Positions 7,322 through 29,024 of a stretch of 64,000 nt of DNA are shown here, one piece after another; the stretch's first letter is position 1; the number at the start of each line of letters is the position of its first letter. The position numbers were made by a program, and so were the translations under genes. The notes below the pieces were generated by a model. It worked only from the letters and a program-made list of their open reading frames with translations. It searched no databases and had not been told where the DNA came from. The stretch spans positions 16,285 through 80,284 of the forward strand of contig CAWAHN010000014.1 of the NCBI GenBank assembly GCA_963781845.1. The letters run 5' to 3'. The DNA is from an uncultured Chloroflexia bacterium. Lineage in GTDB: Bacteria; Chloroflexota; Limnocylindria; Limnocylindrales; CSP1-4.

Positions 7322-7425
7322 GGGTCCTCCAAGTCCGGTCACCGGCGATGCCGGGGTCGCGCGCCCGGCGCCGCGGACAGGGCAGGCGGGGCGCAGCGCA
7401 CCGCGAGAGGATACCCGGTCTCGGC

Positions 7426-8523: not shown

Positions 8524-8700
8524 GATCCCCTTTCCGATGAGCCGCGCGGTCGCCGCCTGCGCCGCGGCCCTCGGCGCAGTATCCCCGAATCCGGGCGGGC
8601 TCGACGCCGTCCGTTGAGTCGACCGACCGGCCCGACCGCAGCACTGCGTCACGCCCTGACCGATCCGCGCTCGGCGCTGGACGTGTTGCGCGCCCACAAG
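8524..8700. promoter_or_regulatory. Divergent intergenic region between wecB (minus) and the GT4 gene (plus); presumed bidirectional promoter.
   Basis: 177-bp non-coding gap between two divergently oriented, well-supported CDSs. No specific -10/-35 elements are asserted. Confidence 0.35.
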
Positions 8701-16070: not shown

Positions 16071-16847
16071 TCAGTCCTCGAGCCGGCGCAGGAACCCGCT
16101 TCGGCAATAGGTCGTGGTAAGCCGCTCGTACGAGCGGTCGATCTCGAACTCGGGGTGCGCCGCCAGGTATTCCCGGACCGCCTCGAGCGGGTTGTCGTCA
16201 TGCCAGGTCGGCTGGCCGTTGGGTGCGTCCGCGACCATCGGCATGACCTCGTCGAAGACGATCATGTAGCTGCCCGGCGTCACCATCGGGCCGTACAGCT
16301 CGAGCTCGCGCAGGACGTGGGCCCGGGTGTGATTCGAATCGAGCATGACCATGGTCGTCTGGCCCGGAGCGATCAGGTCGCGGACGGAGGCGACGGTCGT
16401 CGGATCGGTCGAGCTGCCCTCGATCAGGCTGATCCGGCGGGCCATCGGGTGGCTCTCGATGGCCAGCCGGTTGTACTTGCGGATCTCGATGTCCACCCCG
16501 ATCACGCGGCCGCGCCCGAGCAGCTCGAGGATCGAGGCGTAGAGGATCAGGGCGCCGCCGTGGGCGACCCCGCTCTCGATGACGACATCGGGGCGCAGCT
16601 TCCAGACCAGCTCCTGGACCATCACGATGTCCTCGGGAAGCTGGATGATCGGGATGCCCAGCCAGGTGACCTCGTAGGACAGCTTGCGCTGCCAGCCGGA
16701 CCGGGTGAACAGGTCCGCGACCACCGCGAACCCCTCCGGCGTGTAGATGTCGACCTCGCGGGGACCGTCCTCGGTCCGGATCGTGATGACCCGGTCCGGC
16801 TGCGTTCCGCTGTCCGTCACGATCGGTCCTCCAAGCGACTGCGCCAC
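16071..16847 (-). CDS. CmcI-family (cephalosporin-hydroxylase-like) class I SAM-dependent O-methyltransferase, rhamnosyl-O-methyltransferase-like.
   Basis: 258 aa. IESGVAHGGALILYASILELLGRGRVIGVDIEIRKYN is the CmcI Rossmann core. It is the last gene of the CDP-sugar operon. Confidence 0.65.
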   Translation of the reverse strand: MAQSLGGPIVTDSGTQPDRVITIRTEDGPREVDIYTPEGFAVVADLFTRSGWQRKLSYEVTWLGIPIIQLPEDIVMVQELVWKLRPDVVIESGVAHGGALILYASILELLGRGRVIGVDIEIRKYNRLAIESHPMARRISLIEGSSTDPTTVASVRDLIAPGQTTMVMLDSNHTRAHVLRELELYGPMVTPGSYMIVFDEVMPMVADAPNGQPTWHDDNPLEAVREYLAAHPEFEIDRSYERLTTTYCRSGFLRRLED

Positions 16848-17707
16848 CAGGCGATCGTCTCATCGATGCCGGCTGGGAGATCGCGCGTCGGTCGCCAGCC
16901 CAGACCGAGCAGCGGCCGCGGATCGCCCGGATGGGCATAGCCGTCGTCCCCGATCGGGCCGAGGGCGCCGAGGCGAAGCAGATCGGGTCGACCGGTGCGG
17001 TCGGCGATCGTCCGGAAGACGTCCGCCAGGGTCACCGGTGAACCCGAGCAGATGTCGACCCCACCGGTCAGGGTGGTCCCGGCAAGGGTACAGAACGCGG
17101 CGGCCACATCGGCGACGTACAGGTAGTCCCGCGGTCGCTGGCCGTCGGTCGTCGCGATCTCCTCCCCGGCGACGAGCGCGCGGATCACCGCCGGGATCAC
17201 CCGACGCCGGTCCTCACCGGGCCCGTAGAGATAGAACACGTGCCCGCAGGCGACCGACACGCCCGACGACGAGACGCCCTCCGACAACCGGTGGAGCGCC
17301 CCCTTGGCCGCCTCGTAGATCCGGGGTCGGGGTTCGGCGGCGTTCTCGAGGCAGGTCCCGCCGAGCACGACCCGCGGGCATCCGCCTTCGGCCGCGGCCA
17401 GGAGGAGCCCGACCGAGGCCTCCAGCGACGCGAGGTTCTCGGCCAGCGCATCACGATAGCGGCCCGGCTCGGCGTACCAGGCGAGGTGGATGACGGCGTC
17501 GGGCCGGATCTCGCCGAGCAGCGCCATCAGGCGCGACCGGTCCGCCAGATCCGCCTCGACGCGGTCGACCCGGCTCCCGAGGTCGTCGAGGCGCGCGGCC
17601 ACCGACCCGGGCCGAACGAGGGCGACGGGGTGGTCTCCCCGTGAGAGCAGCTCGCGAACGACGTGCGCGCCGATGAACCCGGCGGCCCCGGTCACGAGGA
17701 CCTTCAT
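16817..17707 (-). CDS. NAD(P)-dependent sugar epimerase/reductase (extended SDR), likely the 4-ketoreductase of the CDP-sugar pathway.
   Basis: MKVLVTGAAGFIGAHVVRELL, YxxxK (YEAAKGAL), 296 aa. Confidence 0.8.
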   Translation of the reverse strand: MKVLVTGAAGFIGAHVVRELLSRGDHPVALVRPGSVAARLDDLGSRVDRVEADLADRSRLMALLGEIRPDAVIHLAWYAEPGRYRDALAENLASLEASVGLLLAAAEGGCPRVVLGGTCLENAAEPRPRIYEAAKGALHRLSEGVSSSGVSVACGHVFYLYGPGEDRRRVIPAVIRALVAGEEIATTDGQRPRDYLYVADVAAAFCTLAGTTLTGGVDICSGSPVTLADVFRTIADRTGRPDLLRLGALGPIGDDGYAHPGDPRPLLGLGWRPTRDLPAGIDETIAWWRSRLEDRS

Positions 17708-18162
17708 CAGTGCTGCCGGATGTCCCAGTCGTACGGGATGTCGTTATCGAACGGATCGAGCCGGATCGACCGCGCCGGGTCGTGCGGATGGGTCGAGCAG
17801 TTGGCGACGATGGCCGCCCCCGGCCCCATCCCCTTGAACCCGTTCCAGACCCCCGGCGGGACCTGGACGAGACTGTAGTCGTCGGGACCCAGGAACCGCT
17901 CCATGACCTCGCCCCGCGATGGGGACCCGTCGCGATCGTCGTACAGGACCAGCTTGATGCGGCCGTGCACGCAGACGTAGTTGAGGGTCATCTCGGCATG
18001 CTTGTGCCAGCCCTTGACGACACCCGGATACACGGTCGAGAAGTAGATCTCGCCGAATCCAAGGAACTCGGGATCCGTGGCCTTGAGCATGTGCATGACC
18101 GTGCCGCGTTCGTCCGGGATCCGGGCGCGGGGCACGATGCGCACTCCATCGATCATCGTCAC
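17707..18162 (-). CDS. Cupin-fold sugar epimerase/isomerase (RmlC/FdtA superfamily); the G-x-H-x-H motif (KGWHKH) favours an FdtA/QdtA-type 3,4-ketoisomerase over a RmlC-type 3,5-epimerase.
   Basis: 151 aa. GEIYFSTVYPGVVKGWHKHAEMTLNYVCVHGRIKLVLYDD. The stop overlaps the start of the downstream reductase. The ATG overlaps the C-methyltransferase stop (ATGA). Confidence 0.65.
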   Translation of the reverse strand: MTMIDGVRIVPRARIPDERGTVMHMLKATDPEFLGFGEIYFSTVYPGVVKGWHKHAEMTLNYVCVHGRIKLVLYDDRDGSPSRGEVMERFLGPDDYSLVQVPPGVWNGFKGMGPGAAIVANCSTHPHDPARSIRLDPFDNDIPYDWDIRQH

Positions 18163-19397
18163 ACCAGCTGCGGGTCCGGGATCGGGATGAGGAACCGCCC
18201 GCCGCGCTCACGGTACTCGGTCTGTTGCGCAAGGATCTCGTCGGCGAAGTTCCAGGCGAGCAACAGGCAGACGTCCGGCATGGCTCCGACGAGCCGCTCC
18301 GCGGGCACGATCGGGATGTGCACGCCGGGCATGAAGCGGCCCTCCTTGTACGGGCTCCGATCCGCGACGAAGTCGATCGTCTCGGTCCCGATCCCGAAGG
18401 CGTTGAGCAGGACCGTTCCCTTGGCCGCGGCTCCGTAGGCGGCGACCGTCCGGCCCTCGGTCCGGAGCTCGCCGATGAGGGCGAGCAACTTCCGTCCCAG
18501 GGTCTCCACGCGAGTCGCGAATTCGAGGAAGTAGGCGGGCGTGGTCAGGCCGAGGACACGCTCCTCCTCCAGGAGTGCCGCGACGGCCTCGGACGATCCG
18601 TCGGCGCCGACCGACCCGGAGGCGCCGGAGTGGCGGACGAAGATCCGAAGCGAGCCCCCGTGAACGGGTAACCGCTCGACACCCACGACGGCCAGGCCGG
18701 CGCGGTCGAAGATCCGTTCGAGCGCGCTCAGCGAGTGGTAGTAGCGATGCTCGTGGTAGATCGTGTCGAATTCGAGCCGCTCGACCAGGTCCCTGACGTA
18801 GGGGGTCTCGATCACGGCGACGCCGTCCGGCTTGAGGATCAGTCCGATCCCGGCCACGAACCCATCGAGATCCGGCACGTGAGCGATGACGTTGTTGGCA
18901 TGGACGACGTCGGCCGACTGCCCCGAGTCGACCAGCTTCCGAGCGAGCTCCGGGTCGAAGAACTCGGCGACCGTGGGCACCCCGCGGGCCATGGCGGCGG
19001 AGGCGACGTTCCGGGCCGGATCGATGCCCAGGACCGGGATCCCGACGGCCGCGTAATGCTGGAGCAGGTAACCGTCGTTGCTGGCGATCTCGACGACGAG
19101 GCTGTCGCGGGTCAGCTGGCGGGTGGAGATCATCCGGTTCGCGCTGAGCCTGGCGTGCTCGACGAACGCCTCGGACACCGACGAGAAGTAGGCATACTCG
19201 CGGAACATCTGCTCGGGCGGCACCGGCTCGGTGATCTGGACCAGGCCACAGGCCGGGCAGATCGCCAGCGTCAACGGGAAGCGCGGCTCGGGATCGTCGA
19301 GCGTCTCACGGGTCAGGAGCGCGTTGGCCAGCGGCTGGTCACCGAGGGACAGGACCGGGACGAGTCCGGCACCGCAGCTCCCGCACGCCGCGGTCAC
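18159..19397 (-). CDS. NDP-hexose C-methyltransferase (TylC3/NovU family; zinc-binding N-domain plus SAM-MTase plus C-MT C-terminal domain).
   Basis: GTG start VTAACGSCGAGLVPVLSLGDQPLANALL, overlapping the rfbG stop (GTGA). A second Cys pair CPACGLVQ follows. ~412 aa. The 148-aa N-terminal extension in the track ORF was rejected. Confidence 0.8.
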   Translation of the reverse strand: MTAACGSCGAGLVPVLSLGDQPLANALLTRETLDDPEPRFPLTLAICPACGLVQITEPVPPEQMFREYAYFSSVSEAFVEHARLSANRMISTRQLTRDSLVVEIASNDGYLLQHYAAVGIPVLGIDPARNVASAAMARGVPTVAEFFDPELARKLVDSGQSADVVHANNVIAHVPDLDGFVAGIGLILKPDGVAVIETPYVRDLVERLEFDTIYHEHRYYHSLSALERIFDRAGLAVVGVERLPVHGGSLRIFVRHSGASGSVGADGSSEAVAALLEEERVLGLTTPAYFLEFATRVETLGRKLLALIGELRTEGRTVAAYGAAAKGTVLLNAFGIGTETIDFVADRSPYKEGRFMPGVHIPIVPAERLVGAMPDVCLLLAWNFADEILAQQTEYRERGGRFLIPIPDPQLV

Positions 19398-20392
19398 TGC
19401 GGCGACGCCGCAAGGTAGGTCCGATACCAGGCGATCGTCTCGCGGAGTCCCGATGCGAGCGTCGAACGAGGGCGCCACCCGAGCTCGCGCCGCGACCGTG
19501 CCGCCGACACCCGCTGGACGGGGATCTCGTGAAGGGGCTCGGCAAGGATGCGGGGTGCGAGCTTGGAGTCCATCAGGTCGACGATCCGGTCGACCATCTC
19601 GAGCACCGTCAGCCGCTGACCCGCCGCGAAGTTGAACGGCCGACCGCGCAGCTCGGGCCGCCGCCCGACCTGGTCGGCCAGGGCGAGGGTCCCGCTGGCC
19701 GCATCGCGGACGAACAGGTAGTCGCGGAGGAACGTCCCGTCGGACCGGATGACCGGCCGCTCCCCGCGCACGATCGATCTGATCGTGCCCGGCACGATGC
19801 GGCTCCAGTTCAGGTCGCCCCCGCCATACAGGTTCGCGCAACGAGTCACGGCGACGGGCGAGCCGTAGGCCTGGGCGTACGTCTGGGCGAGCAGGTCCGC
19901 GGCGGCCTTCGACGTGTCATACGGGTGACCGGGGCGGAGGGCCATCGTCTCCACGTACGGGCGGCCCGCGGCGTCGCCATAGGCCTTGTCCGAGGAGGCG
20001 ACGACGATCCGGGCGACGCGCGGCTGAGCGCGGCACGCCTCGAGGATCGTCCAGGTCCCCTCGATGTTGTGGCTGAACGTGTCGACCGGATCCCGGAGCG
20101 CGGGACCGACCAGGGTCTGCGCGGCGAGGTGGATCACCGAGTCCACGGCCTCGGCGCGGAGGATCCGATCGACCGTCGTCCGGTCGCGAACGTCGCCCAG
20201 CACGCGGACCAGCCCGGGGACGGCGTCCGCGTCGTCGTCCGGCCAGGCGATATCGAGACCGAGCACCGTCGACCCGGATCCGGCCAGCTCGCTGGTGACC
20301 GCCCGACCGAGGAGCCCCGCCGCCCCCGTCACCAGGACGCGGCGACCGGCCCAGCCATCGTCGCGCTCGGCACTCAATCCCAGGTCACCCAC
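19394..20392 (-). CDS. rfbG: CDP-glucose 4,6-dehydratase.
   Basis: RRVLVTGAAGLLGR Rossmann motif, YDTSKAA (YxxxK), and LYGGGDLNWSRIVPGTIRS, which is diagnostic of the DdhB/RfbG family. 332 aa. Confidence 0.85.
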   Translation of the reverse strand: MGDLGLSAERDDGWAGRRVLVTGAAGLLGRAVTSELAGSGSTVLGLDIAWPDDDADAVPGLVRVLGDVRDRTTVDRILRAEAVDSVIHLAAQTLVGPALRDPVDTFSHNIEGTWTILEACRAQPRVARIVVASSDKAYGDAAGRPYVETMALRPGHPYDTSKAAADLLAQTYAQAYGSPVAVTRCANLYGGGDLNWSRIVPGTIRSIVRGERPVIRSDGTFLRDYLFVRDAASGTLALADQVGRRPELRGRPFNFAAGQRLTVLEMVDRIVDLMDSKLAPRILAEPLHEIPVQRVSAARSRRELGWRPRSTLASGLRETIAWYRTYLAASPQ

Positions 20393-21144
20393 GGCGCCGT
20401 CCGGGCCGCCCAGAGCGACCGGAGGTAGCGGACGTCACGGAGGGTGTCCATCGGCTGCCAGAACCCTTCGTGGGCGAAGCCCATCAGCTGTCCGCGCTGA
20501 GAGAGCCCTTCGAGGACGTCGGCTTCGAGGCTGGTCGAGTCGGTCGGGATCGAACCGACGACCTCGGGCTCGAGGACCATGAACCCGCCGTTGATCCAGC
20601 CCTCGCCGATCTGGGGCTTCTCGGTGAACGTGACGGTTCGATCCTCACCGAACGACAGCCCGCCGAACCGAGCCGGCGGCCGGACGGCGGTCACGGTCGC
20701 CAGTCGGCCGGACGCGCGGTGGAACGCGAGGAGCGCCTGGAGGTCGACGTCCGCGACCCCGTCGCCGTAGGTGAGCATGAACGCCTCGTCGCCGAGCCAC
20801 GGCGCCAGTCTGGCGACACGACCGCCGGTACCGGTGTCCGCGCCGGTGTCGACCAGGTGGACGGTCCACGCATCCTTGTCCCGGTCATGTCGATCGACGG
20901 TCCCGACCCCCGTCCTGACGGTCAGGCTGCCGCTCAACGCGAGCGTGTCGACGAAGAAGCGCTTGATGTCGTCGCCCTTGTACCCGAGGGCCACGACGAA
21001 CTCGGTGAAGCCGGCCTGGGCGTAGTGCTTCATGATGTGCCACAGGATCGGACGGTCCCCGATCTCGACCATCGGCTTCGGCCGAACCTCGGTCTCCTCG
21101 GCGAGCCGTGACCCGAGACCGCCGGCTAGGATGACAACCTTCAC
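20374..21144 (-). CDS. rfbF: Glucose-1-phosphate cytidylyltransferase.
   Basis: (V)KVVILAGGLGSRLAEETEVRPKPMVEIGDRPILWHIMKHY aligns to RfbF/DdhA across its whole length. The start is GTG (plus-strand 'cac' at 21142-21144). Confidence 0.9.
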   Translation of the reverse strand: MKVVILAGGLGSRLAEETEVRPKPMVEIGDRPILWHIMKHYAQAGFTEFVVALGYKGDDIKRFFVDTLALSGSLTVRTGVGTVDRHDRDKDAWTVHLVDTGADTGTGGRVARLAPWLGDEAFMLTYGDGVADVDLQALLAFHRASGRLATVTAVRPPARFGGLSFGEDRTVTFTEKPQIGEGWINGGFMVLEPEVVGSIPTDSTSLEADVLEGLSQRGQLMGFAHEGFWQPMDTLRDVRYLRSLWAARTAPWVTWD

Positions 21145-21226
21145 GCTCCGATTATGCCCCAGCGGCCGGCGCTTCCCCGAGGGCGGCGCCCGGATCGACG
21201 TCGGGCTCGCGTGGGGAAGGCGATCG
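21145..21226. promoter_or_regulatory. Divergent intergenic region between the rfbF operon (minus) and the MTase/GT2 genes (plus).
   Basis: 82-bp gap between divergent CDS starts. Confidence 0.3.
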
Positions 21227-22198
21227 ATGACAGACCTCGACCAGAACCCGAAGAGCGACCTCGCACGACCGTCGAAGTTCTGGGCCGCCCTCGGAGGACG
21301 GCACGCGCAGGACGTGACCGAGCACGGCTACGACGCCCTCAAGCGACGCCAGGCACTCCGCTACTTCACCTGGAGCTGGCACCTGCGATCGATCCTCGGC
21401 AGCGAGCAGATGCGCCATCTCCTGCGTCGCACCCCGGTGACCGCGTGGCTCCGATCGGCGTTCACGCCGTTCGCGATCCGCGGTCGCTCGTGGGCTCCGC
21501 TGGACTGGTCGATCGCCGACCGCTGGCTGTACACGGCGGCGGTCAGATTGCTGTGGGAGTACGCGCTGATCCATGGCGACCGCGACGTCCTTCGCCTGGC
21601 GGAGCCGTTGGAAGGCGACCCACTGCCGGTCTCGTACCGAGGTCGGTTGATCTCGCAGGACCTCGCCAACTCCGCTCTGGAGGTCGCCGCGATGCGGCGC
21701 ATCCTCGAGGGACGGTCGCCGCAGTCGATCCTCGAGGTCGGCGCAGGATACGGGCGGACCGCGTACGTCCTGCTGTCGGTCTATCCGAGCTCGACGTACA
21801 CGATCGTCGATATCGAGCCGGCGCTCAGCATCTCGCGCTGGTACCTGAGCCGGCTGTTCCCGTCCGACCGACTCCGATTCCTGACACCGGACCGGGTCGA
21901 CGAGGTGGCCGGCGGGTCCGTCGATCTGGCGGTATCCATCTCCTCCCTCCAGGAGATGACCCCCGGCCAGGTCCAGGGGTATCTCGGATTCATGGATCGG
22001 GTCGCCGCCGGCGGTCGCGTCTACCTGAAGCAGTGGGCGACCTGGCGCAACCCCGACGACGGCGTGACCATGCGGTTCTCGGAGTATCCGGTGCCGTCAG
22101 CCTGGATGGCGACCCTCCGCGAGGCGGCGCCGGTCCAGGAACGCTTCGTTCAGGCCGGCTGGCTCGTTCCGCATCCGTCCGCGGCCGGGACCTCGTGA
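21227..22198 (+). CDS. Class I SAM-dependent methyltransferase (putative sugar O-methyltransferase family).
   Basis: Start MTDLDQNPKSDLARPSKFW. SAM motif ILEVGAGYGRTAYVL. 323 aa. The 65-aa N-terminal extension in the track ORF was rejected. Confidence 0.6.
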   Translation: MTDLDQNPKSDLARPSKFWAALGGRHAQDVTEHGYDALKRRQALRYFTWSWHLRSILGSEQMRHLLRRTPVTAWLRSAFTPFAIRGRSWAPLDWSIADRWLYTAAVRLLWEYALIHGDRDVLRLAEPLEGDPLPVSYRGRLISQDLANSALEVAAMRRILEGRSPQSILEVGAGYGRTAYVLLSVYPSSTYTIVDIEPALSISRWYLSRLFPSDRLRFLTPDRVDEVAGGSVDLAVSISSLQEMTPGQVQGYLGFMDRVAAGGRVYLKQWATWRNPDDGVTMRFSEYPVPSAWMATLREAAPVQERFVQAGWLVPHPSAAGTS

Positions 22199-22217
22199 CC
22201 CGGCGTCACGGCCCGAG

Positions 22218-23234
22218 ATGACCCCGCTCGGTCGACGCCACGTCAGCATCGGACTGCCGACCCGGAACGGCGAGCGCTATATCGCGGAGGCGCTGACCTC
22301 GCTGCTCGGTCAGGACCATCGCGAGTGCGACATCGTCGTGGCCGACAACGCGTCGACGGACCGGACCCCGGACATCGTCCGCGAGATCGTGCGCCGGGAC
22401 GGCCGTGTCCGCCACGAACGGGTCGAGCTGCCGCTGAGCGCGGCGCAGAACTTCAACCGGGCATTCGAGCTGACCGATGGGCCCTCGTTCATGTGGGCCG
22501 CCGACGACGACCGCTGGGACGCCTCGTATGTCGGCCGCTGCCTCGCCGCGCTCGAAGACGATCCCCGGGCCGTGATGGCGACCTCTGGACTTCGCTTCAT
22601 CGACCCGGACGGGGCGGCCATCGATGCCGACTACTCCCGCTACGACAACCCCGACCTCTCGTCCGCATCGACCGTCGAGCGCGTCAGGCGCCTCCTTCGA
22701 CGAGGGGGCTGGTACCAGATCTACGGGGTCGCGCGGCGCGAGGCCCTCGAAGGGACCCGGCTGTTCCAGGACGTCTACGGCCCGGACGTCGTCCTGACCC
22801 TCGAACTGGCCCTGGCCGGCCCGATCCTGCGCGTGCCCGAGGTGTTGTTCTGGTACCGGCGATTCCCGGGTCGCACCGAAGCGGTTCGGGCGAGTCGCCA
22901 GGGCGGCATCCGCGACGAGCTCGACGTCGCGAGCTCGCCTTCGACCCATCTCCAGGAATCGCTGTCCGACGCCGTGCGGGCGTCGACACTGGCCGCTCCG
23001 TTGAAGCTCCGCCTCCTCGCCGAGATCCTCGACGCGTTCTACGTCGAGGACACGCCGATCCGGTCGAGGGCCAGATCCGAGGCTTGGCGGCGGGCCAGGA
23101 CCGCCGCGCGCGATCGGGATGTCGGGCGGTTCGTGAAGTTCAGCCTGGCCCACGGCCTCGATCGACTCGACGATCTCTCGGGCGAGGGGCGTCGATCCGC
23201 TCGGCGCATCGGGCGGAGGCTGGCACGCCGATGA
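22218..23234 (+). CDS. Glycosyltransferase family 2 (GT-A).
   Basis: VSIGLPTRNGERYIAEALTSLLGQDHRECDIVVADNASTD (a DxD-type GT2 N-terminus), 338 aa. Confidence 0.8.
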   Translation: MTPLGRRHVSIGLPTRNGERYIAEALTSLLGQDHRECDIVVADNASTDRTPDIVREIVRRDGRVRHERVELPLSAAQNFNRAFELTDGPSFMWAADDDRWDASYVGRCLAALEDDPRAVMATSGLRFIDPDGAAIDADYSRYDNPDLSSASTVERVRRLLRRGGWYQIYGVARREALEGTRLFQDVYGPDVVLTLELALAGPILRVPEVLFWYRRFPGRTEAVRASRQGGIRDELDVASSPSTHLQESLSDAVRASTLAAPLKLRLLAEILDAFYVEDTPIRSRARSEAWRRARTAARDRDVGRFVKFSLAHGLDRLDDLSGEGRRSARRIGRRLARR

Positions 23235-23244
23235 TCGCGCCGGC

Positions 23245-24579
23245 TCAGCCTCCGGGCCCGACCCCGATCCGTCGGTAGACCTCGACGAGCGTCTCCACCT
23301 GGCGCTCCCAGGCATACCGTTCGGCCGCCGCGAGCGACGCCTCGCGGAACGCCAGCCGCCGCTCCGGCGGCCCGTCGAGGACCTCCCGCAGCGCGCCGGC
23401 GATCGCGCCCGGGTCGGTCGGATCGACCAGGATGCCGCAGCCCGCCGGACGCACGATCGAGGCGATCCCAGGGAGGTCCGACGCGACCACCGGGAGGCCG
23501 GCGCCCAGCGCATCGAACAGCCGGGTCGGTGTCGTCAGGCGGTGGTTGAGCGTCGTCGGCTGGATCGCGATCGCGGCGACGTCGGCGGCGGCCGTCCAGG
23601 CGGCGATGTCCTCCGGCGGGACGCCCGGCAGGAAGTGGATCCGGTCCCTTGCCGGCAGGGTCGCGGCATCGGCGACGAGCCGGTCGCGGAAGGCATCGCC
23701 CGGCCCGACGATCAGCAGCGCGGCGTCGGGGACGTCGGCGATCGCCCGGCAGAGCTGCTCGACGCCGCGGCCCGGGGCGACGTTGCCGAGGCACAGGACG
23801 ATCCGCGTCGACGGCGCGAGCCCGAGGCGTTCCCGGACCGGCTCCGGCTGGGGCATGGAGGGGACCCGTGCCTCGGCACCGACGCCGACCGGTCCGTTGA
23901 CCACGACCGCGGGTCGCACCCCGAGCGTGCGGACGATGACGTCGGCATACGCCTGGTTGGCGGTCAGCACGGCGTCGGCCGATCGCGCCCAGCGCCGCTC
24001 CCGGCGGGCGAGCAGCCGGCGCCACGGCCCGGGCAGCCGCGCGAACCGCGAGCTCTCGACCTGGAGGTCGCGCACGTCGTAGACGACGCGACCGCCGCTG
24101 CGCTTGCGCAGGGCCAGCGCGACCGGCAGGGTGATCAGGCCTTCGGCCTGCCAGACATCGGCCCCCGGCGCGACGACGGCGATCCGGTCCGCCCACTGAC
24201 GCGCCAGCAGGAGGTAGCGCACCGCCTGGATCGGCCGACCGACCACTGTCGTGACCGTCGCCCTGAGGCGCGACCGACGGGGCGCCACCGGGGCCGAGGG
24301 AGCCGCGACGGCCGAGGGCGCGCCACCTCGATCGGCCTCGGGCAGGCGCGGGCTCGGCAGCCATGGCAGCGGGCGCGGCTGGGCGACCCGGACGAGCAGG
24401 AACCCGTCGCGCTCCTCCCGGTCGGGCAGGCCGTCGGCCGTCCGCGCGACCACCGTCACGGACCAGCCCGCCGCCCCCAGGCTACGCGCGATCTTCCACG
24501 AGCGCGAGTCCGACACGAACGGGTTGTTGAGGAGCAGGACGAGCCTGCGCGCCGGGCCCGGACCTTCATTCGCGCTCAC
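23245..24579 (-). CDS. Glycosyltransferase family 4, paralog 2 of 3.
   Basis: GTG start VSANEGPGPARRLVLLLNNPFVSDSRSWKIARSL, overlapping the upstream GT stop (GTGA). C-terminal TTPTRLFDALGAGLPVVASDLPGIASIV. The upstream part of the track ORF is Arg/Gly junk. Confidence 0.75.
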   Translation of the reverse strand: MSANEGPGPARRLVLLLNNPFVSDSRSWKIARSLGAAGWSVTVVARTADGLPDREERDGFLLVRVAQPRPLPWLPSPRLPEADRGGAPSAVAAPSAPVAPRRSRLRATVTTVVGRPIQAVRYLLLARQWADRIAVVAPGADVWQAEGLITLPVALALRKRSGGRVVYDVRDLQVESSRFARLPGPWRRLLARRERRWARSADAVLTANQAYADVIVRTLGVRPAVVVNGPVGVGAEARVPSMPQPEPVRERLGLAPSTRIVLCLGNVAPGRGVEQLCRAIADVPDAALLIVGPGDAFRDRLVADAATLPARDRIHFLPGVPPEDIAAWTAAADVAAIAIQPTTLNHRLTTPTRLFDALGAGLPVVASDLPGIASIVRPAGCGILVDPTDPGAIAGALREVLDGPPERRLAFREASLAAAERYAWERQVETLVEVYRRIGVGPGG

Positions 24580-25952
24580 GGCGCCGGCCCCGCGGCGACC
24601 GTCGACAGGCGCCGGTAGAGGCCGACGAGGCCCTCGCGCGCCGTCTCCCAGCTGTAGCGCTCGAGGGCGACGGTCCGGCAGCGCAGGCGCAGGGCATCTC
24701 GCTCGGCGGCGGGGAGCGTCAGGAGCCCGTTGACGGCCAGTGCGATCGCAGGCGGCGAGTCGACGTCGCAGCAGCGGCCCACGCCCTCGGCGCGCGTCAG
24801 CCGGCAGTGCTCGGTGCCCTCGCCGACGACGATCGGGACGCCCGCCATCAGCGATTGGAAGAGCTTGTTCGGGAGGGTCAGGCGCTGGTTGAGCGTCCGC
24901 GGCGGCGCCCCGACGAACGAGACGTCCGCACCCGCTGTCCAGTCCAGCAGCTCGGCCTCCGGAACGGCGGGCAGGACGACCATCCGGTCGGGTCGGGTCA
25001 CCGCTTCGCCCGCCAGCCATGACTGCAGCTGGCCGAAGCCGAGGAAGACCCCGACCGCTCCGATCTCGACGAGCGCCGGATCGTCCAGCGCCGCGACGAG
25101 CTCCTCGATGCCCTGGTCGACCCGGAACGCGCCCTGGTACAGCACGAGCGGCCGGCTGGCCGTCCCTGGGCCGAGCGCGGCGCCGACCGCCACGCGGAGT
25201 CGATCCGACGGGACCGGTCCGCGCGTCTCGGGATGCCACGCGGGCGGACAGTTGAGCAGGACCACCGGCTCGGGCACGCCGAACCGCTGAGCGACCTCGC
25301 GTGCCATCGATGGCGTGGCGGCGAGGACGCCGGCCGCCTGCCGGACCAGGCTCCGCTCGCGCCGACGGATGAGCGCCCGGAGCACCTCGGGCAGCTTCAC
25401 CAGCCGGGCGGACTCGGTGTGCAGATCGGCGACGTCGTAGACGAACCGGCCCTCCGGCCCGGCGGTCCGCCGGGCCGCATCGCGGGCGACCGGCAACGCG
25501 ATCAACGCCTTGGCGTGGACCACCTGTGCGTCCGGCGCCGCCGCGCCGACCGCCGCCGACCACTCGCGACCCCGCCGCACGGTCGCGAGGATCTCGAGGC
25601 CGCGGCGGAGCGGCGCCCGGAGCCGGTCCACGCCGCGCGCGGGGCCGACCGGCAGCGTCTCGGCGTCGGGTGCGAGCCCGGTCGCCCGGAGGATCGTGGA
25701 ACGGACCGGGCCCGGCAGCGGCTCGAGGCCGCTCCCGATCCGTCGGTCGAGCGTCACCCGGCGCAGCTCGACGCGCTCGCCGAGCGTCGCCGCCTCGGGA
25801 AGTCCGGGGCCGGCGAAGGCGACCACCGTGACGGCATGCCCGTCATCGGCCAGGGTCGACGCCGTCTTGAGCAGGCGGGACTCGTGCTCGAATGTGTTCG
25901 CCGCGACGATGGCCACCCGAAGCCGGCCCGGGACCGGCCCGGGACCGGTCAT
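24576..25952 (-). CDS. Glycosyltransferase family 4, paralog 3 of 3.
   Basis: MTGPGPVPGRLRVAIVAANTFEHESRLLKTAS... C-terminal TLPNKLFQSLMAGVPIVVGEG. The ATG at 25952 overlaps the DegT stop (ATGA). Confidence 0.75.
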   Translation of the reverse strand: MTGPGPVPGRLRVAIVAANTFEHESRLLKTASTLADDGHAVTVVAFAGPGLPEAATLGERVELRRVTLDRRIGSGLEPLPGPVRSTILRATGLAPDAETLPVGPARGVDRLRAPLRRGLEILATVRRGREWSAAVGAAAPDAQVVHAKALIALPVARDAARRTAGPEGRFVYDVADLHTESARLVKLPEVLRALIRRRERSLVRQAAGVLAATPSMAREVAQRFGVPEPVVLLNCPPAWHPETRGPVPSDRLRVAVGAALGPGTASRPLVLYQGAFRVDQGIEELVAALDDPALVEIGAVGVFLGFGQLQSWLAGEAVTRPDRMVVLPAVPEAELLDWTAGADVSFVGAPPRTLNQRLTLPNKLFQSLMAGVPIVVGEGTEHCRLTRAEGVGRCCDVDSPPAIALAVNGLLTLPAAERDALRLRCRTVALERYSWETAREGLVGLYRRLSTVAAGPAP

Positions 25953-27073
25953 CGCGGGGCGTGCGTCGATCGGGCCGGGGATCGGGCCGGCACACGGACC
26001 GGCTCGCGCACGTGGCGACCCACCGCCCCCTGGACCGCGGCGATCACCCGCTGCTGATCGTCGATCGTCAGGCCGGCGTACATCGGCAGGCCGAGCGAGC
26101 CGTCGGCGGCCGCGTCGGTGATCGGCAGCTCGGCATGGATGCCCCGCTCGAGGACGTAGGGCTGGCGATGGATCGGGACCGGGTATTCGATCGCGACCTC
26201 GACCCCGTGATCGGCGAGGTCCGCGGCCACGTCGTCGCGAGCCGGCCCCAGGCCGATCGTGTACCGATGGAACACGTGGCGTCGGCCGACCGGCACGAGG
26301 GGCCGACGGATCGGCAACGCGGCGAACGCAGCGCCGTAGCGGGCGGCGATCGCCCGCCGGGCGAGGATCCCGGGTTCGATCCGGTCGAGACCGACCAGGC
26401 CGATCGCGGCGGCGACCTCGGACAGGTGGAAGTCGAAGCCGAGGATCTCCGCTTGCCGTCCGCGCCGACCGTGGTCGCGATAGCGACGGATCCAGTCGGC
26501 CAGCCGATCGTCGTCGGTGCTGACCAGGCCGCCCTCGCCGGCGCCGTAGAGCCCGAAGGCCCCGTGCCCCCACGAACCGGCGCGCCGACCCCGGAACGTC
26601 GCCCCGTGGGCGCCGCCGCCATCCTCGACGACGGCCAGCCCATGGCGGTCGGCGATGGCCGTGATCATGTCCATGTCGGCGACCAGACCGTGCAGGTGGA
26701 CGGGGTAGATCGCCCGGGTCCGGGGCGTGATCGCCGCCTCGATCCGGGCCGCGTCGATCAGGTACGTGTCGGGCTCGATGTCGATGAAGACGGGGCTTGC
26801 GCCGGTGAACAGGATCGAGCTGACGGTGGCATTGACCGTGTGGCTGACCGTGATGACCTCGTCACCGGGGCCGATCCCGAGGCCGGCCAGGATGCACATC
26901 CTGGCGACCGTGCCGTTGACGACCGCGACCGCGTGACGGACCCCGACGAACTCGGCCCAGCGCGCTTCGATCTCGGCGACCCGCCGACCGGGGACCGTCG
27001 ACCGCGACAGGAGCGCCTCGGCGACGGCCTCCGACTCCTCCCGCCCGACATCGGGTCGCACCGCCGGGATCAT
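25949..27073 (-). CDS. DegT/DnrJ/EryC1/StrS-family (PLP-dependent sugar aminotransferase fold) protein with an apparent deletion of the PLP-lysine loop.
   Basis: MIPAVRPDVGREESEAVAEALLS... DEVITVSHTVNATVSSI... AHGATFRGRRAGSWGHGAFGLYGAGEGGLV. The canonical FSFYPxKNLGAxGDGG region is six residues shorter here and has no Lys. This was verified on the DNA (ggcacggggccttcgggctctacggcgccggcgagggcggc). Confidence 0.75.
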   Translation of the reverse strand: MIPAVRPDVGREESEAVAEALLSRSTVPGRRVAEIEARWAEFVGVRHAVAVVNGTVARMCILAGLGIGPGDEVITVSHTVNATVSSILFTGASPVFIDIEPDTYLIDAARIEAAITPRTRAIYPVHLHGLVADMDMITAIADRHGLAVVEDGGGAHGATFRGRRAGSWGHGAFGLYGAGEGGLVSTDDDRLADWIRRYRDHGRRGRQAEILGFDFHLSEVAAAIGLVGLDRIEPGILARRAIAARYGAAFAALPIRRPLVPVGRRHVFHRYTIGLGPARDDVAADLADHGVEVAIEYPVPIHRQPYVLERGIHAELPITDAAADGSLGLPMYAGLTIDDQQRVIAAVQGAVGRHVREPVRVPARSPARSTHAPR

Positions 27074-27194
27074 CTGCACGCTCGCGCCGCGTGCCGACGG
27101 ATCGATCACGGAGCCTCCGGTGGTGCCTGGGTCGGCAGCGGGAACCAGCCTCGAGGTCACCGCCGACCGAACCTCGAGTATAGCCTCGGACGGG

Positions 27195-27635
27195 TCAGCG
27201 GAGCCGCCGAACCACGAGCCACAGGAGGCCGAGAACGGTCCCCATCGCGAGCCCGCCGCGCCAGTCGAGCAGGACGGTCGCCTCGCCGTCGGTCCGTGCG
27301 GCGATGACCAGCGCGGCGCCCGAGCCACGCTCGAAATGGACCTCCTGGGCGACGACCGACCGGATGAGCGCCTGCGAGATGCGCGCCCGCTGGGCCGCCA
27401 CCAGGCCGGCGGAGGCCATGGTCAGCGTCGCCTCGTTCGCGGCGAGGGCGCCGACCGCACCGAGCTCGACGGATGCTCGCTGGGCCTGGGCGGCGCCGAT
27501 CGCACCGAACGACACCGACAGGTCGTCGGTCTGGACGGCGCCGAGAGCGCCGCGCTGGACGTCGACGCGCGCCGGGCGCGGGGCCTCGGTCCCGTCAGGG
27601 ACCGGGGCGGGGGTCGGGTCGGGAACGTGGGTCAT
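27195..27635 (-). CDS. Hypothetical small C-terminally membrane-anchored protein with internal Ala/Gly-rich repeats.
   Basis: 146 aa, MTHVPDPTPAPVPDG...GALGAVQTDDLSVSFGAIGAAQAQRASVELGAVGALAANE...AMGTVLGLLWLVVRRLR. GC3-rich codons. GGAG about 10 nt upstream of the ATG. Confidence 0.45.
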   Translation of the reverse strand: MTHVPDPTPAPVPDGTEAPRPARVDVQRGALGAVQTDDLSVSFGAIGAAQAQRASVELGAVGALAANEATLTMASAGLVAAQRARISQALIRSVVAQEVHFERGSGAALVIAARTDGEATVLLDWRGGLAMGTVLGLLWLVVRRLR

Positions 27636-27797
27636 CGGTCGGCTCCGGATGGGTCTTCTCAGGGTCAGACTACCGCGCGGACGACGCCTCCGCCCGCGCG
27701 CGGGCCCTCGAGACCGGGCCGCCGACGGGGTCTTCGGCAGACTCGGTATATCCTGCCCGGCGACGGACGCACCGCGCCGTCCGCCGAAAGGGTCCAG
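27636..27797. promoter_or_regulatory. Divergent intergenic region between the small membrane protein gene and the DUF3048 lipoprotein gene.
   Basis: 162-bp gap between divergent CDS starts. Confidence 0.3.
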
Positions 27798-29024
27798 ATG
27801 TCCGTCCTCGTTCCCCATCCGCGTCGCGCGATCAGCCTCGCGCTGACGATCGGCCTGCTCGCCGGTGCGTGCGGCAGCACGAACCCGAGCGTGACCCCGA
27901 TCGCCCAGGTCTCGACCGCCCCGAGCGCCAGCCCGTCGCTCCCGAGCGAGGTCCCGAGCTCCTCCCCCGACGTCAGTCCCACCCCCGAACCGACGCCGAC
28001 CCCCGAACCGACCCCGGTCACCGTCCCGGCTCCCCTGACCGGCCTGCCGGTCACGCCGGCCCAGGCCCGACGGCATCCCATCGCGGTGATGGTCGACGAC
28101 CTGGGGGCGGCTCGACCCCAGTCCGGGTTCAGCGCGGCGTCGGTGGTCTGGCAGGCCCCGGCCGAAGGCGGCATCCCCCGCTACATGATGGTCTTCGGCG
28201 AGAACCAGCCCGGCGACGTCGGCCCGGTCCGCAGCTCGCGTTACTACTACATCGCCTGGGCCGCCGAGTGGAAGGCGGTCTACGCCCATGCCGGCGGCTC
28301 GCCCCAGGCCCTCCAGACCCTGGCCGCCAACGGCAATGGCAAGCTCGTCTACAACGCGGACGAGTTCCGCTGGGCCGGGGCGTTCCGCCGGATCTCCAGC
28401 CGGTTCCCGCCGCACAACCTGTACACGACGGGCGGGCAGCTGACATCGCTGGCCAAGCGACTCGGTGCCAAGCCGATCACCGCGGGACCCGTCTGGCAGT
28501 TCGCCCCGGACGCCCCGCTCGAAGCGCGACCGGTCGGCGGCAAGATCACGTTCGCCTATCCGACGAGCATCATCCGCTACGACTACGACCGGGCGACCAA
28601 CACCTACCCGCGGTCGGTCAGCGTCGAGGGCAAGCAGAAGGACGCCTCGACCAAGAAGCGGGTCGCCCCCAAGAACGTGATCATCATGCTGATGAGCTTC
28701 GGGCCGCTCAACGACGGCCATCCCAAGAAGCACCGCCTCGAGGCCAAGGTGGTCGGCAGCGGACCGGCCTGGATCTCGACCAACGGCAAGACGATCAAGG
28801 GCACGTGGCGGAAGAAGTCGCTTACGGCGCCGACGAAGTTCTACAACGCGGCGGGTGCCGAGGTGACCCTGACTGCCGGTCAGACGTTCATCAACGTGAT
28901 GCCCACCGGGACGAGGGTCAGGATCACGCCGGGCGCGCCGCCGCCCGCTCCGACGGCATCCCCGTCGCCCGGCGCGTCGCCGTCACCGTCGGGCGTCGGC
29001 GAGGGGCACCGGGCCGCCGTCTGA
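27798..29024 (+). CDS. DUF3048-family lipoprotein with a Pro/Thr/Glu-rich linker.
   Basis: MSVLVPHPRRAISLALTIGLLAGACGS (a lipobox, LAGAC), an SPTPEPTPTPEPTP linker, then a conserved DUF3048-like body (YMMVFGEN...YYYIAWAAEW). The track ORF's 5' 226 codons were rejected. Confidence 0.8.
   Translation: MSVLVPHPRRAISLALTIGLLAGACGSTNPSVTPIAQVSTAPSASPSLPSEVPSSSPDVSPTPEPTPTPEPTPVTVPAPLTGLPVTPAQARRHPIAVMVDDLGAARPQSGFSAASVVWQAPAEGGIPRYMMVFGENQPGDVGPVRSSRYYYIAWAAEWKAVYAHAGGSPQALQTLAANGNGKLVYNADEFRWAGAFRRISSRFPPHNLYTTGGQLTSLAKRLGAKPITAGPVWQFAPDAPLEARPVGGKITFAYPTSIIRYDYDRATNTYPRSVSVEGKQKDASTKKRVAPKNVIIMLMSFGPLNDGHPKKHRLEAKVVGSGPAWISTNGKTIKGTWRKKSLTAPTKFYNAAGAEVTLTAGQTFINVMPTGTRVRITPGAPPPAPTASPSPGASPSPSGVGEGHRAAV

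What the first reader, a model, noticed from the sequence alone, without database searches (positions are those of the whole stretch)
25949..27073. DegT-family homolog with the PLP-binding lysine loop deleted
The protein aligns to DegT/DnrJ/EryC1 sugar aminotransferases through ...VEDGGGAHGATFRGRRAGSWGHGAFGLY-GAGEGGLV. The canonical segment F-S-F-[YH]-P-x-K-N-[LI]-G-A-x-G-D-G-G is six residues shorter and contains no lysine. The DNA confirms this is a single uninterrupted frame.

Lysine-less members are known (ColD and E1 dehydratases use His), but those retain loop length. A deletion suggests either a pseudo-enzyme/regulatory subunit or a mechanistically divergent enzyme. It is embedded among GT4 paralogs, not in the sugar-activation operons.
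Basis: seen in the sequence. Interest (0 to 1): 0.6.

Follow-up and report, generated by a model that had tools for sequence, protein, structure and literature searches.

The report
Lysine-less sugar aminotransferase relic kept by selection
A sugar-aminotransferase gene in an uncultured soil Chloroflexota lineage has lost its catalytic lysine loop, most cofactor-binding residues and its pathway partners, yet is the most tightly conserved gene in its cell-wall sugar locus, so it is probably a dead enzyme reused for a non-catalytic job.

Summary
The ORF (true extent 25949..27109, minus strand, 386 aa) is a full-length DegT/DnrJ/EryC1 protein. It lacks the five codons that carry the Schiff-base lysine (sister clade AFSLYATKNMTTGEGG, here AFGLYG-----AGEGG) and has no lysine anywhere.

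It is not an assembly error. The same 15-nt deletion occurs in 13 GTDB species-level Chloroflexota MAGs (one titled Ca. Limnocylindrales) and 20 protein clusters from four data sources. Five more inferred PLP contacts are lost or relaxed (F80, Q154, S174, N214, R216). D151 and T55 remain.

The intact relatives (≤70% identity) always sit in a WbpD/WbpE/WbpB/WbpA/WbpI-type cassette for a 2,3-diacetamido uronic acid. In the deletion clade the acetyltransferase and 3-dehydrogenase genes are gone. The first seven codons and the ribosome-binding site of the acetyltransferase gene are now fused to this ORF. Its stop overlaps the start of a GT4 glycosyltransferase gene (ATGA).

Purifying selection is strong (dN/dS 0.03–0.2), and dN is the lowest of five locus genes.

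Best reading: a catalytically dead WbpE-derived pseudoenzyme kept for a non-catalytic role, possibly with the coupled GT4s. This is a new variant of a known kind, of moderate interest.

The parts
25949..27109 (-). DegT* coding sequence (386 aa plus stop): a full-length DegT/DnrJ/EryC1 fold-type I homologue without the catalytic lysine.
   Evidence: Pfam PF01041 E 5e-90. PDB relatives 3BN1, 7B0D, WbpE and ArnB. AF2 model pLDDT 82.5, TM 0.82-0.88 to sugar aminotransferases. Conserved GTG start.
27089..27118 (-). Fusion scar: the GGAGG ribosome-binding site (27114-27118) and the first seven codons V-I-D-P-S-A-R (27089-27109). These are the 5' end of the hexapeptide (WbpD-like) acetyltransferase gene that precedes the intact orthologues.
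   Evidence: DNA and protein comparison of 10 deletion-clade loci and 9 sister-clade loci. The acetyltransferase gene is otherwise absent.
26540..26545 (-). Deletion junction, the G177|A178 codons GGC|GCC. Intact orthologues have 15 nt more here, encoding T-K-N-M-T with the Schiff-base lysine.
   Evidence: Codon alignment; protein alignments.
26603..26626 (-). E150-D151-G-G-G-A-H-G. D151, the pyridine-N partner, is retained. The conserved A-C-Q that follows it is replaced by G-G-G; the Q aligns with the active-site pocket residue Glu160 of perosamine synthase and His185 of Ser5.
   Evidence: residue equivalence and PMC11726168.
26414..26479 (-). Remodelled gate loop and N-x-R motif. R-N-Q-G-M-R-x-R-Y-H-H-E becomes R-D-H-G-R-R-G-R-(gap)-Q-A-E. 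G-Y-N-F-R-L-T-D-I becomes G-F-D-F-H-L-S-E-V, so N214D and R216H replace the residues that reach the partner subunit's PLP phosphate.
   Evidence: Role of the equivalent Asn189*/Arg191* and the preceding loop in Ser4/Ser5 from PMC11726168.
25949..25952 (-). ATGA overlap: the stop of DegT* and the start of the downstream GT4 gene share four bases (translational coupling).
   Evidence: Conserved as ATGA or GTGA in all 11 deletion-clade loci inspected. In the sister clade the same overlap leads into the WbpB-like gene.
24576..25952 (-). GT4-like glycosyltransferase (458 aa) coupled to DegT*.
   Evidence: Pfam Glyco_transf_4 E 2e-9; the C-terminal GT1 hit is weak. The orthologue is immediately downstream in 12 of 13 other deletion-clade loci; in L011 it did not pass the tblastn coverage filter, but the GT4 ORF start is present there.
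23245..24579 (-). Second GT4 glycosyltransferase (444 aa) in the same operon. Its start overlaps the stop of the first GT4 by 4 nt.
   Evidence: Pfam Glycos_transf_1 E 1e-20; conserved in all deletion-clade loci.
27195..27623 (-). Small conserved ORF (142 aa, no family hit) upstream of DegT*. It is syntenic in both clades.
27798..29024 (+). Divergently transcribed DUF3048 lipoprotein-like gene. It is the synteny anchor shared by both clades.
   Evidence: Pfam DUF3048 and DUF3048_C; synteny.

Best explanation
DegT* is the positional orthologue of a WbpE-type nucleotide-sugar 3-aminotransferase that stopped being an enzyme.

In the ancestor, the cassette acetyltransferase / aminotransferase / 3-dehydrogenase / 6-dehydrogenase / 2-epimerase made a 2,3-diacetamido-2,3-dideoxy-uronic acid for a cell-envelope polysaccharide. 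In one Chloroflexota (Ca. Limnocylindria-type) lineage the 3-dehydrogenase and acetyltransferase genes were deleted. One deletion fused the acetyltransferase start to the aminotransferase ORF.

The aminotransferase then lost the lysine loop and most PLP contacts. It can no longer form an internal aldimine and most likely no longer holds PLP or PMP (inferred).

The protein keeps the fold-type I fold and about three quarters of the positions that are conserved in active relatives, and it is under strong purifying selection (shown). It is therefore retained for a non-catalytic function.

The most likely such function is a structural or ligand-binding partner of the two GT4 glycosyltransferases to which it is translationally coupled. 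This step is inferred from operon structure only.
For: Loss of catalytic machinery. A 15-nt deletion removes TKNMT. There are no conserved lysines. ACQ becomes GGG after D151, and S174G, N214D and R216H are fixed. The ring-stacking position F80 is relaxed to V/T/G. Contact roles are taken from the DegT-type structure paper PMC11726168.

Loss of pathway. All intact relatives with enough flank (about 65 loci) have hexapeptide acetyltransferase and GFO_IDH_MocA genes on either side. All 14 deletion-clade loci lack both within +-10 kb, and the window lacks them over 64 kb. The sister GFO protein's best NCBIfam hit is UDP-GlcNAc 3-dehydrogenase, below the curated cut-off. The pathway is described in PMC10622841. 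The fusion scar is shown.

Not a pseudogene. The ORF is intact in 13 of 13 species representatives. Pairwise dN/dS has a median of 0.16 and is 0.03-0.05 for the closest pairs. dN and dN/dS are the lowest of five locus genes over the same genome pairs. Of 196 sister-conserved columns, 148 are unchanged, 29 are switched and fixed, and 19 are relaxed. AF2 gives pLDDT 82.5, with TM 0.82-0.88 to ArnB, Per, WbpE and DesV.

Burst then constraint. Relative to the flanking DUF3048 gene, the protein is about 9 identity points more diverged than expected, and it sits on a long stem branch.

Link to GT4. The A/GTGA overlap with the GT4 gene is conserved. An independent K-to-A lineage (L062) likewise lacks the pathway partners and overlaps a GT4 gene.
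Against: No biochemical, expression or interaction data exist.

D151, T55, H156 and the HRQPY motif are retained, and the new glycines (152-154, 174) are themselves invariant. A remodelled ligand pocket, possibly even for a free cofactor, therefore cannot be excluded.

The GT4 partnership rests only on gene order and start/stop overlap.

The MAGs are incomplete and only +-10 kb was seen per genome, so WbpB-like or WbpD-like genes or another DegT paralogue could lie elsewhere.

dS is near saturation (about 0.6) for distant pairs, so the NG86 ratios are approximate.

The WbpE-type assignment of the sister clade rests on gene context and sub-threshold family matches, not on an equivalog hit.
Confidence: 0.62

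Rival explanations
1. DegT* is still an enzyme with changed chemistry. It binds PMP, PLP or another ligand non-covalently and catalyses a lysine-independent reaction on a nucleotide sugar, in the spirit of the PMP-dependent dehydratases ColD and E1.
For: D151, T55 and H156 are retained, and the fold is intact. The substituted active-site positions are invariant within the clade rather than drifting. Lysine-less catalytic members of this family are established knowledge (ColD, E1). Purifying selection fits any function.
Against: ColD and E1 keep the loop and put His at the lysine position. Here the loop is deleted and no His or Lys is gained there. The phosphate-binding Ser and the partner-chain Asn/Arg are replaced by G, D and H. 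The residue aligned with pocket residue Glu160 (Per)/His185 (Ser5) is replaced by G, and the ring-stacking aromatic is not conserved. No enzyme that would supply a 3- or 4-keto sugar for it was detected by homology search with the sister-clade cassette proteins in the syntenic core of the locus.
Confidence: 0.12
2. DegT* is a Ser4-like non-catalytic subunit. It pairs with an active DegT-family paralogue encoded elsewhere in the genome to form a heteromeric aminotransferase.
For: There is a precedent: Ser4 lacks the catalytic lysine and is required for Ser5 activity (PMC11726168). Fold-type I active sites are built across the dimer interface.
Against: No second DegT homologue was detected in the 64 kb window, and none was seen within +-10 kb in 13 related genomes. 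None of the 80 best GTDB hits comes from a deletion-clade assembly other than the locus itself. Ser4 contributes Asn189* and Arg191* to its partner's PLP phosphate; the equivalent residues here are D214 and H216. Ser4 is truncated and adjacent to its partner, whereas DegT* is full length and has no adjacent paralogue.
Confidence: 0.1
3. DegT* is a decaying relic. The ORF is kept open only because its translation drives expression of the overlapping GT4 gene, and the protein itself has no function.
For: Pathway partners are lost. The start codon and RBS are inherited from the deleted acetyltransferase gene. The ATGA coupling to GT4 is conserved. One clade member (P0019) shows a locally frameshift-like stretch.
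Against: A leader ORF needs only to stay open, which predicts dN/dS near 1. The observed values are 0.03-0.2, and DegT* is the slowest-evolving of five locus genes. About 76% of positions conserved in active enzymes are unchanged.
Confidence: 0.06
4. The finding is an assembly or sequencing artefact, or a strain-specific recent mutation.
Against: The identical in-frame 15-nt gap, with synonymous differences around it, is present in 13 species-level MAGs from different studies and in 20 protein clusters.
Confidence: 0.01

Closest known systems
WbpE/WlbC-type UDP-2-acetamido-3-keto-glucuronate 3-aminotransferase (PDB 3NYU, 3NU7) and GDP-perosamine synthase (PDB 3BN1), i.e. DegT/DnrJ/EryC1 sugar aminotransferases
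   Same: The sequence is full length and homologous (E 1e-62 to 1e-68). The predicted fold is the same (TM 0.82-0.87). DegT* occupies the same chromosomal slot as the intact orthologues that sit in a Wbp-type cassette. D151 and T55 are retained.
   Different: The Schiff-base lysine loop is deleted and there is no lysine at all. Q154, S174, N214 and R216 are replaced and F80 is relaxed. The partner enzymes WbpB and WbpD are absent. It therefore works unlike these enzymes and fails their defining catalytic features.
Ser4, the short lysine-less subunit of the heterotetrameric aminotransferase SerTA (Serratia sp. ATCC 39006; PMC11726168)
   Same: It is a DegT-annotated fold-type I homologue without the catalytic lysine that is nevertheless functional as a non-catalytic protein.
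   Different: Ser4 is truncated at both ends, is encoded next to its active partner Ser5, and supplies Asn189* and Arg191* to Ser5's cofactor. DegT* is full length, has no adjacent paralogue, and has lost exactly those two residues.
PMP-dependent sugar dehydratases ColD and E1 (PDB 2GMS, 3BB8)
   Same: They are members of the same superfamily that lack the Schiff-base lysine. They appear among the weaker PDB hits (E 1e-15 to 1e-28).
   Different: From established knowledge, they keep the loop length, carry His at the lysine position and retain the PMP site. Here the loop is removed and the cofactor site is eroded.
Enzyme-derived auxiliary proteins of glycosyltransferases, e.g. the P450-like DesVIII/EryCII partners of macrolide GTs (recalled from general knowledge, not tested here)
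   Same: The concept is the same: a catalytically dead homologue of a sugar-pathway enzyme family, encoded next to a glycosyltransferase and needed for its function.
   Different: The fold and the GT family are different. For DegT* no interaction has been shown, so this is an analogy and a hypothesis only.

Membership tests
DegT/DnrJ/EryC1/StrS family (PF01041), as a sequence/fold family | Full-length match to the family profile | tested here: met
   E 5.3e-90, 302.7 bits against a cut-off of 19.8; profile positions 3-360 of 360.
DegT/DnrJ/EryC1/StrS family (PF01041), as a sequence/fold family | Fold-type I aminotransferase fold | tested here: met
   AF2 pLDDT 82.5, pTM 0.84. Foldseek TM 0.82-0.88 to ArnB, Per, WbpE and DesV.
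PLP-dependent sugar aminotransferase (catalytic membership) | Schiff-base lysine in the S-x-x-x-x-K loop | tested here: not met
   Five codons including the lysine are deleted, and the protein has no lysine. 145 of the 150 nearest 50%-identity cluster representatives have the lysine.
PLP-dependent sugar aminotransferase (catalytic membership) | Cofactor-binding residues: Asp to pyridine N; Thr and Ser to phosphate; aromatic stacking; the pocket residue three positions after the Asp (Glu160 in Per, His185 in Ser5); Asn and Arg from the partner chain | tested here: not met
   D151 and T55 are kept. S174G, Q154G, N214D and R216H are fixed, and F80 is variable V/T/G. Roles are mapped through 3BN1 and PMC11726168. 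No cofactor modelling was possible.
PLP-dependent sugar aminotransferase (catalytic membership) | Cofactor binding and transaminase activity | not testable with these tools
   This needs purified protein: UV-visible spectrum, borohydride trapping and activity assays.
WbpE-type 3-aminotransferase of the UDP-ManNAc3NAcA pathway | Positional orthology to the aminotransferase of the five-gene cassette | tested here: met
   It occupies the same slot after DUF3048(-) and the small ORF. It is 66-70% identical to the cassette aminotransferase of L002, and the 5' end carries the scar of the acetyltransferase gene.
WbpE-type 3-aminotransferase of the UDP-ManNAc3NAcA pathway | Co-occurrence with the 3-dehydrogenase (WbpB-like) and N-acetyltransferase (WbpD-like) | tested here: not met
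   Both are absent in all 14 deletion-clade loci (+-10 kb) and in the 64 kb window. Both flank the intact relatives in about 65 sister loci wherever the flank is present. Whole genomes were not available.
ColD/E1-type PMP-dependent dehydratases | His at the lysine position with loop length retained | tested here: not met
   The loop is deleted and there is no His in G-L-Y-G-A-G-E-G-G.
Ser4-type non-catalytic aminotransferase subunit | Truncated protein, adjacent active paralogue, and donation of Asn and Arg to the partner's cofactor | tested here: not met
   DegT* is full length. No paralogue was detected in the window or the flanks. The equivalent residues are D214 and H216.
Pseudoenzyme (functional, catalytically dead homologue) | Loss of catalytic residues combined with purifying selection across species | tested here: met
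   dN/dS is 0.03-0.2 within the clade, and dN is the lowest of five locus genes. The ORF is intact in 13 species representatives.

The most novel reading that the evidence does not exclude
The DegT fold has been exapted into an obligate non-catalytic subunit of a GT4 glycosyltransferase in cell-envelope polysaccharide synthesis, acting as activator, scaffold or nucleotide-sugar-binding module. This would be a previously undescribed class of glycosyltransferase auxiliary protein. It would have arisen at least twice when a 3-amino-sugar pathway was lost: once in the deletion clade and once in the K-to-A lineage L062.
Probability: 0.25. Interest if true: 0.7.

Novelty: new variant of a known kind. 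Interest (0 to 1): 0.55.

Why it matters
Databases label every member of this clade as perosamine synthetase or dTDP-4-amino-4,6-dideoxygalactose transaminase. Glycan-pathway predictions for these abundant soil Chloroflexota would therefore wrongly infer an amino sugar.

The case is also unusually well documented by comparative genomics. It shows how a bacterial pseudoenzyme is born: pathway partners are deleted, leaving a fusion scar; about 30 substitutions accumulate, many of them (18 of the 29 fixed switches) within residues 152-238 around the former active site; purifying selection then resumes.

If the protein proves to be a partner of the coupled GT4 enzymes, it would add a new kind of glycosyltransferase accessory protein. 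It would also give a clear example of what remains when catalysis is removed from a fold-type I PLP enzyme.

Tried and rejected
1. Second DegT paralogue. tblastn of an intact orthologue against the window found only this locus.

2. Wide HMMER search of 50%-identity cluster representatives. The deletion clade and its intact sisters collapse into one representative (P0121), so the search could not size the clade. It served only to show that 145 of the 150 nearest representatives keep the lysine.

3. AlphaFold loop confidence. The deletion site is low-confidence in DegT*. The intact orthologue P0037 is equally poor over its lysine loop. The models therefore show fold retention only, and coordinates could not be inspected.

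4. Literature. The structural papers on WbpE and on WbpB/WbpE coupling are not held. Searches for a described DegT pseudoenzyme found only Ser4/Ser5. Pcryo_0616 was not found.

5. Promoter and terminator scans of 22800-28000 found nothing. They were expected to be uninformative in a 73% GC genome.

6. Scar of the WbpB-like gene in the GT4 N-terminus. MTGxG...LRV is similar in both, but too short to call.

7. Rejected explanations. The assembly-artefact and leader-ORF-only ideas are rejected for the reasons given under the rivals.
Full report
**1. The observation.**
The minus-strand ORF at 25949..27073 reads through without a stop. It matches the DegT_DnrJ_EryC1 profile over its whole length (PF01041, E 5e-90). 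Its best solved relatives are GDP-perosamine synthase 3BN1 (E 1e-68), an archaeal sugar transaminase 7B0D, WbpE (3NYS/3NYU) and ArnB.

In the alignment to 3BN1 the query has a gap over 'nkiit', the segment that carries K186. K186 is the residue mutated in entry 3DR4, described as the K186A mutant.

The protein contains no lysine at all, so no shifted lysine can rescue the site.

**2. It is a clade, not an error.**
A search of 5.8 billion proteins returned 20 cluster representatives at 79-92% identity (P0001-P0020, from JGI, ENA, NCBI and Logan). All read AFGLYG(A/V)(G/A)(E/Q)GG. Every hit from P0021 down (70% identity or less) reads AFSLY(A/G)TKNMTTGEGG.

A scan of GTDB species representatives found 13 MAGs with the deleted form. 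They are titled uncultured Chloroflexia, Chloroflexota or Candidatus Limnocylindrales. Three are 97% identical to the window protein. The scan also found about 66 MAGs with the intact form.

At the codon level the gap is exactly 15 nt (ACG AAG AAC ATG ACC). The flanking codons differ synonymously between members. The deletion is therefore old and inherited.

In a neighbour-joining tree the deleted forms are monophyletic on a long stem.

**3. More than the lysine is gone.**
I mapped PLP contacts through 3BN1 and the description of a DegT-type active site in PMC11726168. That paper reports Asp to the pyridine N, Thr and Ser to the phosphate, an aromatic ring stacking on the cofactor, and Asn and Arg from the partner chain to the phosphate. 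It also lists the pocket residue three positions after the Asp (Glu160 in perosamine synthase, His185 in Ser5).

- D151 and T55 are retained.
- S174 is replaced by G.
- Q154 is replaced by G; the conserved A-C-Q becomes G-G-G.
- N214 is replaced by D, and R216 by H.
- All of these changes are fixed in the clade.
- The stacking position F80 is variable (V, T or G).
- The loop before the N-x-R motif is also changed: N200D, Q201H, M203R and loss of a conserved Tyr. In Ser4/Ser5 this loop gates the active site.

Of 196 columns that are at least 90% conserved among the intact relatives, 148 are unchanged, 29 are switched and fixed, and 19 are relaxed. Eighteen of the 29 fixed switches lie within residues 152-238.

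AlphaFold2 predicts the normal fold (pLDDT 82.5, pTM 0.84). The model superposes on ArnB, Per, WbpE and DesV at TM 0.82-0.88. Low confidence at the deletion site is not informative, because the intact orthologue P0037 is equally uncertain there.

**4. Where it came from.**
The intact relatives lie in one fixed arrangement:

- DUF3048 (opposite strand)
- a small ORF of about 140 aa
- a hexapeptide acetyltransferase
- DegT
- a GFO_IDH_MocA oxidoreductase
- a nucleotide-sugar 6-dehydrogenase
- a 2-epimerase
- GT4 genes

This is the gene set of the five-enzyme WbpA/B/E/D/I route to UDP-2,3-diacetamido-2,3-dideoxy-mannuronic acid (PMC10622841). The oxidoreductase's best NCBIfam match is UDP-GlcNAc 3-dehydrogenase, although it is below the curated cut-off.

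All 14 deletion-clade loci, including the window, keep DUF3048, the small ORF and DegT* in the same order. They lack the acetyltransferase and the oxidoreductase within +-10 kb, and the window lacks them over 64 kb. Only distant paralogues of the dehydrogenase and epimerase occur, at 32-46% identity and 5.6-20 kb away. In the window one is a wecB equivalog, and the other is a nucleotide-sugar dehydrogenase most like UDP-ManNAc dehydrogenase.

This is the conserved start of the sister clade's acetyltransferase gene. One in-frame deletion therefore removed nearly the whole acetyltransferase gene and fused its initiation region to the aminotransferase ORF. The internal ATG is not conserved as a start; it is GTG, CTG or GCC in other members.

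No deletion-clade assembly contributes a second, intact copy among the 80 best GTDB hits.

**5. It is still under selection.**
The ORF is intact in all 13 species representatives.

Nei-Gojobori dN/dS within the clade has a median of 0.16. For the window against its three closest relatives it is 0.03-0.05, at dS 0.23-0.44.

Over the same 66 genome pairs, DegT* has the lowest dN (0.098) and the lowest dN/dS (0.16) of five locus genes. The two GT4s give 0.21 and 0.29, DUF3048 gives 0.26, and a GT2 gives 0.18.

Measured against the flanking DUF3048 gene, these genomes are no more distant from a reference sister genome than other sister genomes are (65% against 62% identity). Their DegT is about 8-9 points more diverged than expected (68% against 76%). 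These points are not phylogenetically independent, so I use this descriptively. The pattern is a burst of change on the stem followed by renewed constraint.

An ORF kept only as a translated leader would not show this.

**6. Link to the glycosyltransferases.**
The TGA of DegT* overlaps the ATG of a GT4-like gene (ATGA, 25949-25952). This A/GTGA overlap is present in all 11 deletion-clade loci inspected. In the sister clade the same overlap leads into the oxidoreductase gene.

The coupled GT4 and a second GT4 behind it are conserved throughout the clade. They have only 33-45% identity to the sister clade's GT4s.

The wider window is an ABC-transporter-type polysaccharide locus with GT2 and GT4 genes and deoxysugar genes.

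One further MAG (L062) has independently changed the lysine codon AAG to GCC without the deletion. It sits on a long branch inside the sister clade, lacks the same pathway partners, and overlaps a GT4 gene by GTGA.

**7. Interpretation.**
Shown:

- loss of the lysine loop
- loss or relaxation of five of seven other inferred cofactor contacts
- loss of the neighbouring pathway genes, with a fusion scar
- retention of the fold
- strong purifying selection
- conserved coupling to a GT4 gene

Inferred:

- the protein no longer binds PLP or PMP
- it is not an aminotransferase
- it serves a non-catalytic role
- that role involves the coupled GT4s

Rivals:

- A lysine-independent enzyme of the ColD/E1 type is disfavoured, because those keep the loop and a His, and here the cofactor site is eroded.
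- A Ser4-like subunit of a heteromeric aminotransferase is disfavoured, because Ser4's functional Asn and Arg are exactly the residues lost here and no paralogue is nearby.
- A function-less leader ORF is disfavoured by dN/dS.
- An assembly artefact is excluded.

**8. Novelty.**
In the literature I could search, the only described lysine-less DegT-like non-catalytic protein is Ser4. ColD and E1 are known catalytic exceptions. Sporadic K-to-Q relatives also exist (P0140, P0246), so loss of the lysine recurs in this family.

What is new is a full-length orphan pseudo-aminotransferase with a deleted loop. It is conserved across a multi-species clade and its evolutionary origin is traceable. I rate it a new variant of a known kind, with moderate interest.

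**Caveats.**
Only +-10 kb per related genome was seen. dS is near saturation for distant pairs. Window gene calls outside the focal operon come from my own GC3 heuristic. No experimental data exist.

Noticed in passing
L062:10001-12315 (PMLK01000098, fen_1039 MAG): This is an independent loss of the catalytic lysine: AAG to GCC (K to A), with the loop length intact and EDAGQAHG. The locus also lacks the acetyltransferase and oxidoreductase neighbours, overlaps a GT4 gene by GTGA, and sits on a long terminal branch inside the intact clade.
   Followed up: partly
P0140 (L084:6001-7095) and P0246: These are two further full-length relatives with Gln at the lysine position, found among the 150 nearest 50%-identity cluster representatives. 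P0140 also lacks the N-x-R motif and lies between two UDP-GlcNAc 2-epimerase-like genes.
   Followed up: partly
window 25949-26011 (C-terminal ~20 residues of DegT*): An Arg/Pro-rich C-terminal tail (RHVREPVRxPxR..R) has invariant positions in the deletion clade but is unconserved in the intact clade, and AF2 models it as disordered. It could be a gained interaction motif, or it could reflect nucleotide constraint from the overlapping GT4 start region.
   Followed up: no
window 23245-25952 (-): Both GT4 genes downstream carry L-N-x-R-L-T-x-P-x-(K/R)-L-F-(Q/D) where, from my recollection, GT4 enzymes carry an E-x7-E motif. The first GT4 gives only a weak hit to the C-terminal GT1 domain (21.6 bits, below the cut-off). 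Whether they are catalytically canonical was not examined.
   Followed up: no
window 16071-23234: A cassette of about 7-10 kb lies between the GT4 pair and the ABC transporter. It encodes a CmcI-type O-methyltransferase, an epimerase/reductase, an RmlC-like protein, a sugar C-methyltransferase, a 4,6-dehydratase-like protein, a methyltransferase and a GT2. At least the ~90%-identical relative L001/L008 lacks it: there the ABC transporter directly follows the GT4 pair, and in most other clade loci the downstream epimerase lies ~9 kb rather than ~18.6 kb from DegT*.
   Followed up: partly
window 27195-27623 (-): A small 142-aa ORF has no Pfam hit and a hydrophobic C-terminal tail. It is conserved (37-49% identity to the L002 copy) directly upstream of the aminotransferase cassette in both clades. 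Its function is unknown.
   Followed up: no
P0019 (deletion-clade member, ENA 55 kb contig): One clade member shows a stretch around residues 270-305 that looks locally frameshifted. It is either an assembly error or one lineage in which the gene is decaying.
   Followed up: no
window 6017-8571 (-): A wecB equivalog (295 bits against a cut-off of 210) and a nucleotide-sugar dehydrogenase most like UDP-ManNAc dehydrogenase lie about 18-20 kb from DegT*. This suggests the locus now makes a ManNAcA-type sugar rather than a 3-amino uronic acid. My GC3 gene caller mis-called this stretch on the plus strand.
   Followed up: partly
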